Shown: one piece after another, positions 7,976 through 11,538 of the stretch
How positions within the stretch are numbered: position 1 is the stretch's first letter
How the letters are laid out: every line of letters starts with the position of its first letter
NCBI GenBank assembly: GCA_964400165.1
Contig: CAYNSX010000008.1
Location: forward strand, 91 to 64,090
Direction of reading: 5' to 3'
Length of the DNA: 64,000 bases
From: an uncultured bacterium
GTDB taxonomy: Bacteria > Armatimonadota > Hebobacteria > CAYNSX01
Position numbers and translations under genes: made by a program
Notes under the pieces: generated by a model
The model's input: only the letters and a program-made list of their open reading frames with translations
What the model was told of the DNA's origin: nothing
Databases searched by the model: none

Positions 7976-9105
7976 TGGCGTCGCGCCGCCCGCACGAGGC
8001 CTGCCTGGTATTGAGCGACGGCACCGTGTTCCCCGGCCAGTCCATCGGCACGCCGGGGACAGCGGTCGGCGAGGTGGTGTTCTCGACGGCGATGACGGGC
8101 TATCAGGAGATGTTGACCGACCCCTCGTACCGCGGCCAGATCCTGACGCTCACCTATCCGCTCATCGGCAACTACGGCACGACCGCCGAGGACGCGCAGT
8201 CGGACCGCGTGCAGGTGGCGGGGCTGATCATTCGAGAGTTATCGCCGGAGCCGAGTTCGTGGCGCGCCGACGAGGGGCTGCGCGAGTACTTGCAGCGCGA
8301 AGGTGTCGTGGCGCTGGCAGGCATCGACACGCGGGCGCTGACGCGGCGGCTGCGCACTGCGGGCGTGATGATGGGCGTCCTCACCACTGAACTCTCACCA
8401 AAGCGGGCGCTGTCGCGACTGAAGGCGGCAAAGAACTACGGCGACCTCGACTTCGTCGCCGAGGTGACGGCGAAGGGCTCGTATCAGTGGCGCGAGGGGG
8501 CGCACGGGCAGTCGGAGTTGCGCTTCGGAGAAGGGCCGGCAGTGTGCGTGGTGGACTACGGTGTGAAGCGCAACATCCTGCGTTACCTGGCGGCGGAGGG
8601 CTGCGAAGTGTTCGTCTTCCCGGCGCAGGCGAGCGCGGCGGAAGTGATGCGCCCGAAGCCGGATGTGGTGGTGCTCTCGCCGGGGCCGGGCAACCCGGCG
8701 CGCCTCGACTACGCCATCGCCACGGTGCGCGACCTGCTCGAGACGAGCGTGCCGCTGGTGGGCATCTGCCTCGGGCATCAGTTGCTCGCTCACGCGGCCG
8801 GCGGCGGGACGGTGAAGCTGAAGTTCGGGCACCGCGGCGCCAACCACCCGGTGCAAGACCTGGCGACCGGCGCGGTGCGCATCACCAGCCAGAACCACGG
8901 CTACGCCGTGGACGCCGCGACGCTGGCGGGCAGCGGCTTCGAGGTGACGCAGCGCAACCTGAACGACGGCACCGTCGAAGGGCTGCGCCACACCAGCAAG
9001 CCGGTGTGGTCGGTGCAGTACCACCCCGAGGCGAGCCCCGGGCCGACGGACAGCCGCGGGCTGTTCCACACCATCGCCGAGATGGCGGGGAGCGCCGGGC
9101 GATGA
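7975..9105 (+). CDS. carA: Carbamoyl-phosphate synthase small (glutaminase) subunit
   Basis: LVLSDGTVFPG N-terminus and the GICLGHQ catalytic Cys motif. ATGA overlap with pyrC. Confidence 0.95.
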   Translation: MASRRPHEACLVLSDGTVFPGQSIGTPGTAVGEVVFSTAMTGYQEMLTDPSYRGQILTLTYPLIGNYGTTAEDAQSDRVQVAGLIIRELSPEPSSWRADEGLREYLQREGVVALAGIDTRALTRRLRTAGVMMGVLTTELSPKRALSRLKAAKNYGDLDFVAEVTAKGSYQWREGAHGQSELRFGEGPAVCVVDYGVKRNILRYLAAEGCEVFVFPAQASAAEVMRPKPDVVVLSPGPGNPARLDYAIATVRDLLETSVPLVGICLGHQLLAHAAGGGTVKLKFGHRGANHPVQDLATGAVRITSQNHGYAVDAATLAGSGFEVTQRNLNDGTVEGLRHTSKPVWSVQYHPEASPGPTDSRGLFHTIAEMAGSAGR

Positions 9106-9620
9106 CGCGCCATCAGTTTGCCGAAGCGGTAGCGGAGCACTTGGGCGGGCTGCTAGCGCGGGAGTTCGGCGGCGCGGTGCGGGTGACGGCGGGGGTGCAT
9201 CTGCCGGTGGCGGTGCGGTGCGTTCCAGCGTCCAGCGGCGGCTGGGAGTGGCGGGTGGAGACGGCGCCGGTGGAGATTGTGGTGCATGCGTCGGGTGAAG
9301 TTTCGCTGGCCGGGGTGACGACGCCGGTGCCGCTGGTGTATGCCGTCCTCGCCCCTTCCGACGAGCCGGCGGACCTCGCCGCGCTCGGGCAGGCGGCGGC
9401 GGGGGTGCGGGCAATCTTCCCGCACGCGCAGGGCTACCTGCTCGGCGAGGCGCTGGAGCCGAAGGCGGCGCTGGCGCTGCCGGGGTTCGACCGGGTGTAT
9501 CCGCAGTGGGAGCATGAGCACCTGGGCAAGCGGCGGGTGTGGGTGGATGTGCGGCGGCACCTGATGCACCTGGAGTTGTCGGGGGTGTTGCCGGGCGGGC
9601 AGTTTGGAGACCGGGAATGA
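9102..9620 (+). CDS. Hypothetical protein (172 aa), first gene of a three-gene insertion between carA and carB. C-terminus GGQFGDRE is shared with the downstream Fic protein
   Basis: ATG overlaps the carA stop (ATGA) and the stop overlaps the Fic start. No recognisable motif. Confidence 0.6.
   Translation: MTRHQFAEAVAEHLGGLLAREFGGAVRVTAGVHLPVAVRCVPASSGGWEWRVETAPVEIVVHASGEVSLAGVTTPVPLVYAVLAPSDEPADLAALGQAAAGVRAIFPHAQGYLLGEALEPKAALALPGFDRVYPQWEHEHLGKRRVWVDVRRHLMHLELSGVLPGGQFGDRE
9592..9620 (+). repeat. 29-bp direct repeat copy 1 (cgggcgggcagtttggagaccgggaatga) spanning the 3' end of the hypothetical gene and the RBS/ATG of Fic
   Basis: Identical except 1 nt to 10362-10390. Confidence 0.75.
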
Positions 9621-10390
9621 ACGACGCATTGAGTAACCTGTTGCAGCGAATCGACGAGAAGCAAGAGCGGGTGGCCGCGCGGCGACCGCTGCCGCCGGAA
9701 GTGGTCGCCAACTTGCGTGAGGTGCTGGGCGTCGAATGGACCTACGAGAGCAACGCGATCGAGGGGAACTCGCTGACGCTCGCCGAGACCCGGGTGGTGG
9801 TGCTCGACGGGTTGACCATCGGGGGGAAGTCCGTGCGCGAGCACCTCGAGGCGACGAACCACTGGGCGGCGCTGCAGCACCTCGAGACGATGACGCAAGC
9901 CGGGCCGTTGAGTGAAGACGATGTGCTCACGCTCCACGGATTGATCCTGCGGGGCCTCGATGACCGGAACGCCGGGCGCTATCGCCGCGTGCAAGTGGAG
10001 ATCTCCGGCAGCCGGCACCTGCCGCCGCCGCCCGGCGCGGTTCCCGGGCGGATGCGGGAATTGCTGCAGTGGGCGAACTCGGAAGCAGCCGAGGCCCGGC
10101 ATCCCGTCCTGCGAGCGGCGGAGTTCCACCAGCGGTTAGTGGACATCCACCCCTTCGTTGATGGCAACGGGCGCACCGCTCGCCTGGCGCTGAATCTGAT
10201 CTTGCTGCGGGCGGGCTATGTCCCCGCCATCATTCCGACGGCGCGGCGCGCCGAGTACATCGCTTCCATCGAGGCGTGGCGGCGCAAGGAGGCCGAACCG
10301 TTCGAGCGACTCGTCGCCGAGGAAGAGGAGCGGACCCTCGACCGGTACTTGCGGGCGCTGTCGGGCGGGCAGTTTGGAGACCGCGAATGA
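9617..10390 (+). CDS. Fic family protein, class II (N-terminal inhibitory motif SNAIEGN; active-site HPFVDGNGRTAR), probable AMPylase
   Basis: Canonical Fic motif HxFx(D/E)GNGRxxR and the auto-inhibitory [S/T]xxxE[G/N] helix in the same polypeptide. Confidence 0.85.
   Translation: MNDALSNLLQRIDEKQERVAARRPLPPEVVANLREVLGVEWTYESNAIEGNSLTLAETRVVVLDGLTIGGKSVREHLEATNHWAALQHLETMTQAGPLSEDDVLTLHGLILRGLDDRNAGRYRRVQVEISGSRHLPPPPGAVPGRMRELLQWANSEAAEARHPVLRAAEFHQRLVDIHPFVDGNGRTARLALNLILLRAGYVPAIIPTARRAEYIASIEAWRRKEAEPFERLVAEEEERTLDRYLRALSGGQFGDRE
10362..10390 (+). repeat. 29-bp direct repeat copy 2 (cgggcgggcagtttggagaccgcgaatga) at the Fic 3' end and SIR2 start
   Basis: See copy 1. Confidence 0.75.
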
Positions 10391-11538
10391 GTGAGCCCTT
10401 GAACGCTGAAAACAAGAAACGATTCAAGGTTAAAGAATATCTGCCATGGGACAGTCGCGTGATTCTGTTCCTGGGTTCGGGGGCATCAGCGCCATTCGGT
10501 TACCCCCTCCTGCGCGACTGGAAAAGAGTACTTGGTGAACTTAGACCAGAGCATGAGTCTCGAGTCAGCGGTTTAAGGGCACGCGTGGATAATGAAGACC
10601 GGTTTGATATTGAGACTCTCCTGGGTGAACTCACAGCCCAGCTCAAACGACTGAATTGGCTCATCGATGACAATGGCCTTGAGTCGCTGGGGCTGATTAG
10701 CAAGGACCTCCCGAAGGGATGGGAGCCTGCTAGACAACAGATTCAAGGCCTGATCCAACATATTCAGAAACAGATCCACGCGACCTACAAGAGCAACCCG
10801 GATGAAGGCGAGATTGGCAGGTCAAGACTTCGTCTACTCTGGGAGCCGGTTCTCTATCAAATCGCCGGAGCGTATAAGGCCTATCCTTTGGTTGTGACAA
10901 CGAACTGGGACGGATTATTTGAGGACTACCTTAAGGAGTCGCGTCTTGTCCCCGTAACTGGGATTGATCCACAGACTCAACTATTCCACGACTACCAGTA
11001 TGATCGCGAACTGCAAGAGAACGAAGTGCTTGTGTTGCATCTTCACGGACATGCGCATTGGTTTTCCGACAAGCACGAAAGGATTGCTTACCAGCCAATC
11101 CCCACTCCCGAAGCGCTGACTCCCGTGATCTACTACCCAACCCCCGATAAGTCCGAAGCCAGACATCCTGAGCTTCTGAAGATTGGCGATGCATTCGAGC
11201 GCGCTCTCCGCGGCGCCCGACTTGTTGTCGTGGTCGGCTATTCAGCCAGAGATGATCACATTGTTGACGCTTTCAGACGCGTCGCAAAGTCGAGGGGAGA
11301 GAACACCCTGCGAGTAGCAGTGCTGGATAGGTGCCCCGGCGTGGCAGCGGCGCGGCTCGGGAATAATAGGGAAATCGAAGCATCGCCGTATCGTACGAAC
11401 CTCGGCGGTTACGACTTCTCTGAAGCATACAGAAACCTAGAAAAAGCCATCTCATGGGAGCGCACAGACGGCCACATGTTTCAAATGGGGCCGGATTGTC
11501 CATTTAGACCGTCTGACGGAACTTCTGATGCCGCGTGA
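10387..11538 (+). CDS. SIR2-family (SIR2_2-like) protein, putative NAD+-consuming effector. Markedly AT-richer than its neighbours
   Basis: Rossmann GAGxS-like [13 protein letters not shown] and HLHGH motifs matching the defense-type SIR2 TTNYD/KLHG signatures. Codon composition visibly A/T-richer than the flanks (not computed). Confidence 0.8.

What the first reader, a model, noticed from the sequence alone, without database searches (positions are those of the whole stretch)
9102..11538. Three-gene module (unknown 172-aa protein, class-II Fic AMPylase, SIR2-family NADase-like protein) inserted at the normally contiguous carA|carB junction and translationally coupled into the pyrimidine operon
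carA and carB are usually adjacent. Here three extra ORFs lie between them, each start overlapping the previous stop (ATGA / GAATGA). The middle gene carries a canonical Fic active site (HPFVDGNGRTAR) together with an N-terminal inhibitory SNAIEGN helix, which makes it a class II Fic. The third gene has SIR2_2-type motifs ([18 protein letters not shown]) of the kind seen in the NAD+-depleting effectors of Thoeris, DSR and SIR2-HerA, but it is a stand-alone ~380-aa protein with no SLOG, HerA or pAgo partner. I do not know of a Fic+SIR2 pairing as a described system. I read this as a candidate toxin or abortive-infection module sitting inside an essential operon that PyrR attenuation controls.
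Basis: partly seen in the sequence, partly recalled or inferred. Interest (0 to 1): 0.88.

Follow-up and report, generated by a model that had tools for sequence, protein, structure and literature searches.

The report
Variable Fic/SIR2 slot inside pyrimidine operon
Two unrelated accessory genes, an auto-inhibited Fic AMP-transferase and a foreign-looking SIR2 NAD-hydrolase-type protein, have been slotted exactly at the start codon of carB inside a pyrimidine-biosynthesis operon, but relatives show they come and go independently and so do not look like one three-gene system.

Summary
ORF1 (172 aa), a Fic gene (257 aa) and a SIR2_2 gene (383 aa) lie between carA and carB at 9102-11538, with overlapping stops and starts. 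Fic (Pfam 88.7 bits) and SIR2_2 (47 bits) pass profile searches and keep their catalytic motifs.

The "three-gene module" reading does not hold. Six related metagenome contigs show four states of the site:
- carA-ORF1-carB
- ORF1-Fic
- ORF1-SIR2
- ORF1-Fic-SIR2 (this window)

**ORF1** is a vertically inherited gene of this lineage. Its dN/dS is 0.15-0.2, and its dS and GC3 match the flanking genes.

**Fic and SIR2** are separate single-gene cassettes. They sit in a 1,910-nt insert that begins at the old carB start codon and reuses the ORF1 tail and ribosome-binding site. A ~50-nt copy of that junction follows Fic.

**Fic** is FICD-like class II. Sampled relatives elsewhere also sit inside housekeeping gene clusters and never beside SIR2.

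**SIR2** is compositionally foreign (GC3 0.56 against ~0.9). It is nearly an orphan. It most resembles the SIR2 subunit of SIR2-HerA (Nezha), but no HerA is present.

A defence or toxin role for SIR2 is plausible but untested. Overall this is a tidy micro-hotspot of moderate interest, not a new system.

The parts
4675..4786 (+). PyrR-binding leader candidate upstream of pyrR
   Evidence: Rfam RF00515 at 47.3 bits, below the gathering score of 54, E 4.7e-4. A promoter-like site lies at 4642-4669.
4945..9105 (+). pyrR (4945-5490), pyrB (5487-6578), pyrC (6578-7975) and carA (7975-9105), with every stop and start overlapping
   Evidence: ORFs. Pfam for carA. Gene calls and Pfam on the collinear relative L083. 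Junction strings.
9102..9620 (+). ORF1, a 172-aa lineage-specific protein of unknown function. It is a conserved operon member, not part of the insert.
9583..9632 (+). Junction repeat copy 1: ORF1 C-terminal tail (GGQFGDRE), GGAG ribosome-binding site and ATGA
   Evidence: 50-nt direct repeat, 82% identical, with a 22-nt exact core and 770-nt spacing. Junction alignment A3.
9617..11526 (+). The 1,910-nt segment absent from the close relative L083. It holds Fic plus SIR2 and was inserted at the ancestral carB start codon.
   Evidence: blastn of L083 against the window breaks at 9616|11527.
9617..10390 (+). Class II, FICD-like Fic AMP-transferase (257 aa). Inhibitory Glu is E49 in SNAIEGN. The Fic motif is at residues 178-189. 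The last 9 residues are copied from the ORF1 tail.
   Evidence: Pfam. PDB FICD at 1e-44. Motif positions. Tail compared with family C-termini. GC3 0.86.
10353..10402 (+). Junction repeat copy 2, at the 3' end of Fic and the start of SIR2
10387..11538 (+). Stand-alone SIR2_2 protein (383 aa) of the SIR2-HerA (Nezha) SIR2 type. It keeps G30/G32/A33/S34, T172/N173 and H220, and is compositionally foreign.
   Evidence: Pfam. Family invariants. AF2 pLDDT 84.6. Foldseek. Profile against PDB at 7e-33. GC 0.53 and GC3 0.56, with sharp GC steps at both gene ends.
11528..14788 (+). carB. Its start codon lies 8 nt before the SIR2 stop.

Best explanation
In this uncultured high-GC lineage the pyrimidine operon runs pyrR-pyrB-pyrC-carA-ORF1-carB. 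ORF1 is a lineage-specific resident of the operon.

**The slot.** The few nucleotides around the carB start codon, just after the ORF1 tail and ribosome-binding site, act as a small variable slot. In different relatives it holds nothing, a Fic gene, a SIR2 gene, or both, as in this window. Each inserted gene takes over the upstream ribosome-binding site and an ATGA stop/start overlap. It is therefore co-transcribed with the operon and probably translationally coupled, and carB translation now depends on reading through the inserts.

**The two cassettes are independent.**
- Fic is an older resident with host-like composition. It is an auto-inhibited FICD-like AMP-transferase/de-AMPylase from a family that sits inside housekeeping gene clusters.
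- SIR2 is a recent foreign acquisition. It is the SIR2-HerA type of NAD+ hydrolase with an intact catalytic dyad but no HerA. It is most likely a latent NADase (defence or toxin effector) that needs some other trigger.

**Shown:** the anatomy, the four states, the composition, selection on ORF1, and the family assignments.

**Inferred:** co-transcription and coupling, NADase and AMPylase activity, any defence role, and the direction and mechanism of gain or loss.
For: **Four states in relatives**
- L083/L084 have carA-ORF1-carB.
- L001 and L087 have ORF1-Fic.
- L086 has ORF1-SIR2.
- The window and L002 have ORF1-Fic-SIR2-carB.

**Breakpoints**
- The clean break is at 9616|11527.
- All breakpoints align to ...GGAGACCGCGA|TGC....
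- A 50-nt junction repeat flanks Fic. The Fic tail SGGQFGDRE is absent from 40 family members.

**ORF1 is under purifying selection.** dN/dS is 0.15-0.2, with dS equal to the neighbours.

**Composition.** GC3 is 0.87-0.91 for host genes, 0.86 for Fic and 0.56 for SIR2. SIR2 is the lowest-GC stretch in the whole 64 kb.

**SIR2 allele divergence.** The window and L086 alleles are 54.5% aa identical, next to ORF1 genes that are 89% identical.

**SIR2 rarity.** It has no close homologue among 5.8 billion proteins. The best distant hit among 1.84 billion representatives is 2e-14.

**SIR2 family.**
- The fold and the family profile match the SIR2 subunits of SIR2-HerA.
- The residues invariant across the family alignment are kept.

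**No HerA.** None lies in the adjacent genes or among the large ORFs of the window that were scanned.

**Fic family.** It matches FICD at 1e-44 with the inhibitory Glu aligned. Relatives lie in the his operon and beside ileS, never beside SIR2.

**Transcription signals.** No promoter-like or + strand terminator-like site lies inside the module.
Against: - No expression or activity data exist.
- The right-hand junctions of L001, L086 and L087 are unseen because the contigs end. Some of those relatives could therefore also carry both genes.
- Only six related contigs exist, all from metagenomes.
- SIR2 of the SIR2-HerA type is inactive without HerA in S. aureus (PMC11514289). A lone copy might therefore be inert.
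- The insertion mechanism is unexplained. The 50-nt repeat is too long for an ordinary target-site duplication, and no recombinase is nearby.
- The low GC of both SIR2 alleles, despite their deep divergence, does not fit a single recent capture.
Confidence: 0.6

Rival explanations
1. One reading: ORF1, Fic and SIR2 form one co-functioning toxin or abortive-infection system. For example, Fic or ORF1 could sense or regulate the SIR2 NADase. The whole unit would have been inserted between carA and carB.
For: - The three genes are contiguous with overlapping stops and starts.
- Both enzymes belong to families with defence-associated members.
- SIR2 lacks its usual HerA activator, so it would need some other partner.
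Against: - ORF1 exists without either enzyme in L083/L084.
- SIR2 follows ORF1 directly, with no Fic, in L086.
- Fic and SIR2 differ sharply in composition.
- No Fic+SIR2 pairing appears in the sampled neighbourhoods of homologues or in the literature search.
- Fic carries its own inhibitory helix, and ORF1 has no (S/T)xxxE(G/N) motif.
Confidence: 0.1
2. The full array ORF1-Fic-SIR2 is ancestral. The simpler states arose by deletion through recombination between the junction repeats. The slot would then be decaying rather than capturing genes.
For: - Direct repeats flank Fic, so repeat-by-repeat recombination would excise it cleanly and restore a working junction.
- Fic has host-like GC3.
- The dS of Fic between the window and L001 (0.60 over 58 codons) is of the same order as the neighbours (0.32-0.44). 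This fits vertical descent.
Against: - SIR2 has GC3 0.56 in a host at ~0.9, which argues against long residence.
- The two SIR2 alleles are far more diverged (pN 0.30) than the backbone (pN 0.07). Their left junctions also differ by a 15-nt indel.
- The SIR2/carB junction has no clear repeat copy.
Confidence: 0.2
3. Fic and/or SIR2 are physiological regulators of the pathway they sit in, not conflict genes. Examples would be AMPylation, or deacylation/ADP-ribosylation, of carbamoyl-phosphate synthetase or another nucleotide-metabolism enzyme.
For: - FICD-like Fic enzymes are reversible AMPylases/de-AMPylases (PMC6408439, listed).
- This Fic family recurs inside housekeeping gene clusters.
- The genes are arranged for stoichiometric co-expression with CarA and CarB.
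Against: - The housekeeping context differs between lineages (his, ileS, pyr), so there is no consistent pathway link.
- Close relatives manage without either gene.
- The SIR2_2/SIR2-HerA clade is known for NAD+ hydrolysis rather than deacetylation.
- SIR2 is foreign in composition.
Confidence: 0.1
4. The arrangement is an assembly chimera, or SIR2 is a decaying pseudogene.
For: The data are metagenomic, and the SIR2 segment has an abrupt GC shift.
Against: - A separately assembled JGI contig carries the same arrangement with 2 mismatches in 4.75 kb.
- The ORF1-SIR2 and ORF1-Fic junctions recur in other samples.
- SIR2 is an intact 383-codon ORF that keeps every residue invariant across the family alignment and gives a confident fold, pLDDT 84.6.
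Confidence: 0.02

Closest known systems
SIR2 subunit of the SIR2-HerA (Nezha) anti-phage system (PDB 8yhx, 8j4u/8sub/8suw, 8w9l/8wld)
   Same: - It has about the same length and the same whole-protein fold. Foldseek gives E 1e-11 to 1e-9 and TM 0.55-0.65.
- The family profile matches almost end to end at 7e-33, 1e-31 and 9e-24.
- The GxGxS motif, the TTN Asn and the catalytic His are conserved.
   Different: - There is no HerA gene next to it or among the large ORFs of the window that were scanned.
- Sequence identity is only 11-17%.
- It sits inside a biosynthetic operon rather than a two-gene defence operon.
- S. aureus Sir2 alone is inactive (PMC11514289), so the mode of activation here is unknown.
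FICD/HYPE-type class II Fic enzymes and their short bacterial relatives, such as E. faecalis Fic (PMC6408439)
   Same: - The Fic core and the N-terminal inhibitory helix align to FICD at 1e-44.
- The motifs HPFVDGNGRTAR and SNAIEGN are present.
- It is expected to be Glu-repressed for AMPylation and possibly able to de-AMPylate. That expectation is an inference from the family.
   Different: - It has no TPR or membrane anchor.
- At 257 aa it is a bare domain.
- Its target is unknown.
- Its C-terminal 9 residues are borrowed from the neighbouring gene.
SoFic single-gene anti-phage system
   Same: The Fic core matches the PADLOC SoFic model at 7e-29.
   Different: - It fails the NCBIfam SoFic equivalog, scoring 25.7 bits against a cut-off of 550.
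- Only profile positions 60-244 of 361 are covered. At 257 aa the protein is too short to include the C-terminal domain described for Sofic (PMC12249575).
- PDB SoFic matches only at 2.6e-4.
Core-gene-flanked defence or accessory hotspots, and the variable carA-carB spacer known from Neisseria (the latter is my own recollection and was not checked here)
   Same: - It is a fixed chromosomal site between conserved genes that holds different accessory genes in different strains.
- In the genomes sampled here, 15% carry something between carA and carB. This includes HEPN/MNT toxin-antitoxin pairs in Chloroflexota MAGs.
   Different: - Here the slot is a single nucleotide position inside an unbroken chain of overlapping genes.
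- The cargo is single genes with no promoter of their own.
- Each is fused to the upstream gene's tail and ribosome-binding site.
- No mobile-element genes are nearby.

Membership tests
Fic/Fido, class II (inhibitory helix in cis, N-terminal) | Fic active-site motif HxFx(D/E)GNGRxxR within a Fic domain | tested here: met
   HPFVDGNGRTAR at residues 178-189. PF02661 at 88.7 bits against a cut-off of 24.
Fic/Fido, class II (inhibitory helix in cis, N-terminal) | (S/T)xxxE(G/N) inhibitory motif on the same polypeptide, N-terminal to the Fic core | tested here: met
   SNAIEGN at residues 45-51 (E49). It aligns to the inhibitory TVAIEGN motif of the FICD homologue 5jj6.
Fic/Fido, class II (inhibitory helix in cis, N-terminal) | AMP-transferase or de-AMPylase activity | not testable with these tools
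   This needs biochemistry.
SoFic defence system | Full-length SoFic architecture (Fic plus C-terminal domain) that passes the equivalog model | tested here: not met
   NF046030 scores 25.7 bits against a cut-off of 550. The PADLOC match covers only profile positions 60-244 of 361.
Class I FicT/FicA toxin-antitoxin | A separate small antitoxin that supplies the inhibitory (S/T)xxxE(G/N) helix in trans | tested here: not met
   ORF1 has no such motif, and Fic carries its own. ORF1 also exists without Fic in L083.
SIR2_2 NADase-type sirtuin-like domain | SIR2_2 profile match above the curated cut-off | tested here: met
   PF13289 at 47 bits against a cut-off of 24.5.
SIR2_2 NADase-type sirtuin-like domain | Rossmann GxGxS motif and the catalytic Asn/His dyad | tested here: met
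   G30, G32, A33, S34, N173 and H220 are invariant in the 62-sequence family alignment. I equate them with SaSir2 S55, N226 and H287 (PMC11514289) by motif correspondence (GxGxS, TTN, HG); no residue-level alignment to SaSir2 was made.
SIR2_2 NADase-type sirtuin-like domain | NAD+ hydrolysis | not testable with these tools
   This needs an enzyme assay.
SIR2-HerA (Nezha) system | A SIR2 subunit of the Nezha type | tested here: met
   Foldseek top 27 hits. Profile against PDB at 7e-33.
SIR2-HerA (Nezha) system | An adjacent HerA-family ATPase gene | tested here: not met
   The neighbours are Fic and carB. The large ORFs elsewhere in the window are housekeeping genes. Not every small ORF was scanned.
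Thoeris ThsA / DSR1-2 / SPARSA | A SLOG domain with a TIR partner, or a ~1000-aa protein with a C-terminal sensor, or an APAZ/pAgo partner | tested here: not met
   The protein is 383 aa with a single domain. These structures are weaker fold matches, at E 1e-5 to 1e-6. No such partner is nearby.
Integron gene cassette | An attC-like imperfect hairpin at the cassette boundary and a nearby integrase | tested here: not met
   The junction RNAs fold no better than shuffles, with z from -0.36 to +1.0. No attC-like inverted repeat was found at either cassette boundary. No integrase lies in the adjacent genes.

The most novel reading that the evidence does not exclude
The carB start codon in this lineage is a genuine cassette-capture site. 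The ORF1-tail and ribosome-binding-site repeat would serve as the recombination handle. It would let single immune or toxin genes (SIR2, Fic and perhaps others) be swapped in and out of an essential, PyrR-controlled operon. Their dose would then track the cell's pyrimidine state, for example rising when phage replication drains UMP/UTP. Their loss would be penalised, because carB translation depends on a precise junction.
Probability: 0.08. Interest if true: 0.75.

Novelty: new variant of a known kind. Interest (0 to 1): 0.4.

Why it matters
If the anatomy reflects function, three points follow.

- Accessory and probably conflict-related genes can be threaded one at a time into the middle of an essential, tightly overlapping operon without breaking it. 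They do this by taking over a start codon and ribosome-binding site.
- A SIR2 of the SIR2-HerA type can persist without HerA. That raises the question of what activates it.
- The FICD-like Fic family appears repeatedly inside housekeeping gene clusters (pyr here, his and beside ileS elsewhere). This may hint at a physiological role for these poorly understood bacterial Fic proteins.

None of this overturns current ideas. It is a clean natural example rather than a new principle.

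Tried and rejected
**ORF1 identity: nothing found**
- No hits in Pfam (also run at E<=10 on all five homologues), NCBIfam, PHROGs or PADLOC. A PDB profile search also found nothing.
- ORF1 shows no similarity to the GNAT-like gene that occupies the same position in Chloroflexota MAGs.
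- There is no paralogue in the window other than the 10-residue tail copy.

**Relatives in reference genomes**
- ORF1 is not found in the GTDB species representatives.
- carA reaches only 56% identity at best, so the lineage is not represented there.
- The JGI metagenome scan returned only the L083 contig.

**A mobile source for SIR2 or Fic**
- tblastn found no SIR2 match in 50,697 phage records or 72,556 plasmid records.
- The viral contigs hold no close relative of SIR2 or Fic.

**attC-like or regulatory RNA structure at the junctions**
- Rejected. The z-scores run from -0.36 to +1.0.

**Other attempts**
- The last contig look-up (P0282) turned out to be a C-terminal carB fragment and gave nothing.
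- The literature search on carA/carB intergenic variation returned only noise.

Full report
**1. What is in the sequence**

The window is about 67% GC. Its + strand carries an unbroken chain of overlapping genes:
- pyrR 4945-5490
- pyrB 5487-6578
- pyrC 6578-7975
- carA 7975-9105
- ORF1 9102-9620 (172 aa)
- Fic 9617-10390 (257 aa)
- SIR2 10387-11538 (383 aa)
- carB 11528-14788

Every junction is a stop/start overlap: ATGA, TGATG, TGATG, ATGA, ATGA, ATGA, and then an 11-nt overlap.

Fic matches PF02661 at 88.7 bits, SIR2 matches PF13289 at 47 bits, and ORF1 matches nothing. The quoted motifs sit at Fic residues 45-51 and 178-189, and at SIR2 residues 27-34, 171-175 and 218-222.

A PyrR-leader candidate lies upstream at 4675-4786. 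It scores below Rfam's gathering threshold, 47.3 against 54 bits. No promoter-like or + strand terminator-like site lies inside the module.

A separately assembled JGI metagenome contig carries the same arrangement with two mismatches in 4,753 nt.

**2. Relatives show a variable slot, not a module**

ORF1 has only four relatives among 5.8 billion proteins, at 74-89% identity. Those contigs, plus a carA cluster mate found by exact look-up, give the following states.

| Contig(s) | Arrangement | Notes |
|---|---|---|
| L083 (203-kb contig), L084 | carA-ORF1-carB | No Fic and no SIR2. About 90% nt identical to the window across the operon. |
| L001 | carA-ORF1-Fic | Contig ends inside Fic. |
| L087 | ORF1-Fic | An 18-nt spacer lies between the genes. 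|
| L086 | ORF1-SIR2 | SIR2 homologue ([34 protein letters not shown]...) follows ORF1 directly, with no Fic. |
| Window, L002 | ORF1-Fic-SIR2-carB | |

blastn of L083 against the window breaks exactly at window 9616|11527. The extra DNA is therefore 9617-11526, which is 1,910 nt.

ORF1 is not part of the insert, and Fic and SIR2 are found apart.

**3. Anatomy of the insertion site**

The empty site in L083 reads ...GGGCGGGCAGTTTGGAGACCGCG-ATGCCGCGTGACGCG... The ORF1 tail (GGQFGDRDAA*) overlaps the carB ATG by 11 nt.

In the window:
- The ORF1/Fic junction is ...GGGCGGGCAGTTTGGAGACCGGGA-ATGAACGAC...
- The Fic/SIR2 junction is ...GGGCGGGCAGTTTGGAGACCGCGA-ATGAGTGAG...
- The SIR2/carB junction ends ...ACTTCTG-ATGCCGCGTGACGCG.

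All breakpoints fall within a few nucleotides of the old carB start codon.

A 50-nt direct repeat lies at 9583-9632 and 10353-10402. It is 82% identical and has a 22-nt exact core. It brackets Fic with a spacing of 770 nt.

The repeat contains the ORF1 tail, the GGAG ribosome-binding site and the ATGA. As a result the last nine residues of Fic (SGGQFGDRE) are a copy of the ORF1 tail. Forty other members of the Fic family end earlier with unrelated tails.

In L086 the SIR2 gene keeps the ATGC of carB plus its own ribosome-binding site (GAGGATTGATACATG). Its left junction therefore differs from the window's by a 15-nt indel.

The junction RNAs have no unusual structure, and no recombinase gene is nearby. 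How the genes got in is not explained.

**4. Different histories for the three genes**

| Measure | Flanking pyr/car genes | ORF1 | Fic | SIR2 |
|---|---|---|---|---|
| GC3 | 0.87-0.91 | 0.87 | 0.86 | 0.56 |
| dN/dS against relatives | 0.06-0.20 | 0.15-0.20 | 0.16 (58 codons, vs L001) | not computable; synonymous sites saturated (66 codons) |
| dS | 0.28-0.45 | 0.35-0.44 | 0.60 | saturated |

- **ORF1** is a real gene that has been inherited vertically.
- **Fic** is compatible with descent from the common ancestor of the window and L001.
- **SIR2** is the lowest-GC stretch of the whole 64 kb. GC steps sharply at both ends of the gene.
- The window and L086 SIR2 alleles share only 54.5% aa identity (pN 0.30). 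The ORF1 genes beside them are 89% identical (pN 0.07).
- Both SIR2 alleles have GC of about 0.53. This pattern fits repeated capture or allele exchange at one site better than simple vertical descent. A fast-evolving old resident is not excluded.

**5. What the proteins are**

*Fic.*
- It aligns to FICD/HYPE and its C. elegans homologue at about 1e-44. The alignment includes the inhibitory helix, where SNAIEGN pairs with TVAIEGN. That makes it a class II Fic.
- It fails the SoFic equivalog, scoring 25.7 against 550 bits. The PADLOC SoFic hit covers only the Fic core, and the PDC-S04 hits do not change that assignment.
- It has more than 5,600 homologues, the best at 56% identity. These are ~250-aa proteins found in Chloroflexota, Thiomonas and Firmicutes.
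- In the three neighbourhoods sampled, the homologues lie on the same strand inside housekeeping gene clusters. One sits as hisH-BioY-Fic-hisA. Two sit between an alaX-like gene and ileS. None is next to a SIR2.
- FICD-type enzymes are Glu-repressed AMPylases that can also de-AMPylate (PMC6408439, listed). A constitutive toxin role is therefore unlikely.

*SIR2.*
- The word-indexed search of 5.8 billion proteins found only the gene itself.
- A full HMMER pass over 1.84 billion representatives gave a best non-self hit of 2e-14 at about 30% identity. There were 340 hits, mostly 320-400-aa single-domain proteins.
- In a 62-sequence alignment of these hits, G30, G32, A33, S34, E76, N173, H220 and G221 are invariant.
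- The AlphaFold model is confident, with pLDDT 84.6 and pTM 0.86.
- Its top 27 Foldseek hits in the PDB are SIR2 subunits of SIR2-HerA (Nezha) complexes. KomC, CobB, ThsA, SPARSA and DSR2 follow.
- The family profile hits the same PDB chains at 7e-33, 1e-31 and 9e-24.
- No HerA gene is adjacent. The larger ORFs elsewhere in the window are ordinary housekeeping genes.
- In S. aureus, Sir2 alone has no NADase activity until HerA binds (PMC11514289). This lone SIR2 is best described as a probably latent NADase with an unknown trigger.
- The two nearest SIR2 relatives whose contexts could be read also stand alone among unannotated genes.
- No relatives were found in the phage, plasmid or viral-contig collections.

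*ORF1.* Nothing was found by any sequence or fold method.

**6. Background for carA|carB**

I sampled 74 genomes that have carA and carB on one strand. In 63 the two genes are within 153 nt of each other. In 11 they are separated by 435-2924 nt.

In three Chloroflexota/Dehalococcoidia MAGs the gap holds a GNAT-like 151-aa gene. It also holds a HEPN gene and/or a nucleotidyltransferase (MNT) gene, which together form a toxin-antitoxin pair. These MAGs include the best carB matches to the window. I assigned these functions by reading the translated sequences, not by a profile search. Other genomes carry a four-helix-bundle gene, an ORF6N gene or a LysE gene in the gap.

Interruption of this junction is therefore uncommon but recurrent. 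The window is an especially tidy case.

**7. Verdict**

The best reading is a micro-hotspot at the carB start codon that holds two independent single-gene cassettes. Each is wired into the operon by reuse of the upstream ribosome-binding site and ATGA.

A defence or toxin role is plausible for SIR2 and weak for Fic. Both are untested.

This is a new variant of known kinds: class II Fic, SIR2_2, and core-gene hotspots. Interest is moderate.

Noticed in passing
L091-L093 (Fic at 4001-4753); L088-L090; L094-L096: Relatives of the window's Fic (50-56% identity, ~250 aa) are intercalated on the same strand inside housekeeping gene clusters in other lineages. In one case the order is hisH-BioY-Fic-hisA in the histidine operon. 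In two others the gene lies between an alaX-like editing gene and ileS. This may be a general habit of this Fic family.
   Followed up: partly
L004 7095-8360; L005 7095-8700; L011 5309-7750: Chloroflexota/Dehalococcoidia MAGs carry a conserved GNAT-like 151-aa gene between carA and carB. They also carry a nucleotidyltransferase (MNT) gene and/or a HEPN gene (both in L011); together these make a toxin-antitoxin pair. L011 has an extra 235-aa gene. These functions were assigned by reading the translated sequences, not by a profile search. Overall, 11 of 74 sampled genomes have 435-2924 nt between carA and carB.
   Followed up: partly
window 15931-17196: This is a second indel relative to L083. 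About 1.27 kb is present only in the window. It carries a minus-strand ORF (16051-17190, 379 aa, GC ~0.6, no Pfam hit) between the prepilin-type gene and the thioredoxin-like genes.
   Followed up: partly
window 4675-4786: The only PyrR-binding-site match in the 3000-16000 region scanned lies upstream of pyrR. It scores below Rfam's gathering threshold (47.3 against 54 bits). No second attenuator was seen before pyrB or carA.
   Followed up: no
L083 16281-17131: The close relative carries TniB-like and Mu-transposase-C-like genes about 3.4 kb downstream of carB. Whether the window has them was not checked.
   Followed up: no
window 14743-14937: About 170 nt just after carB has no counterpart in L083, where the corresponding gap is about 20 nt.
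   Followed up: no
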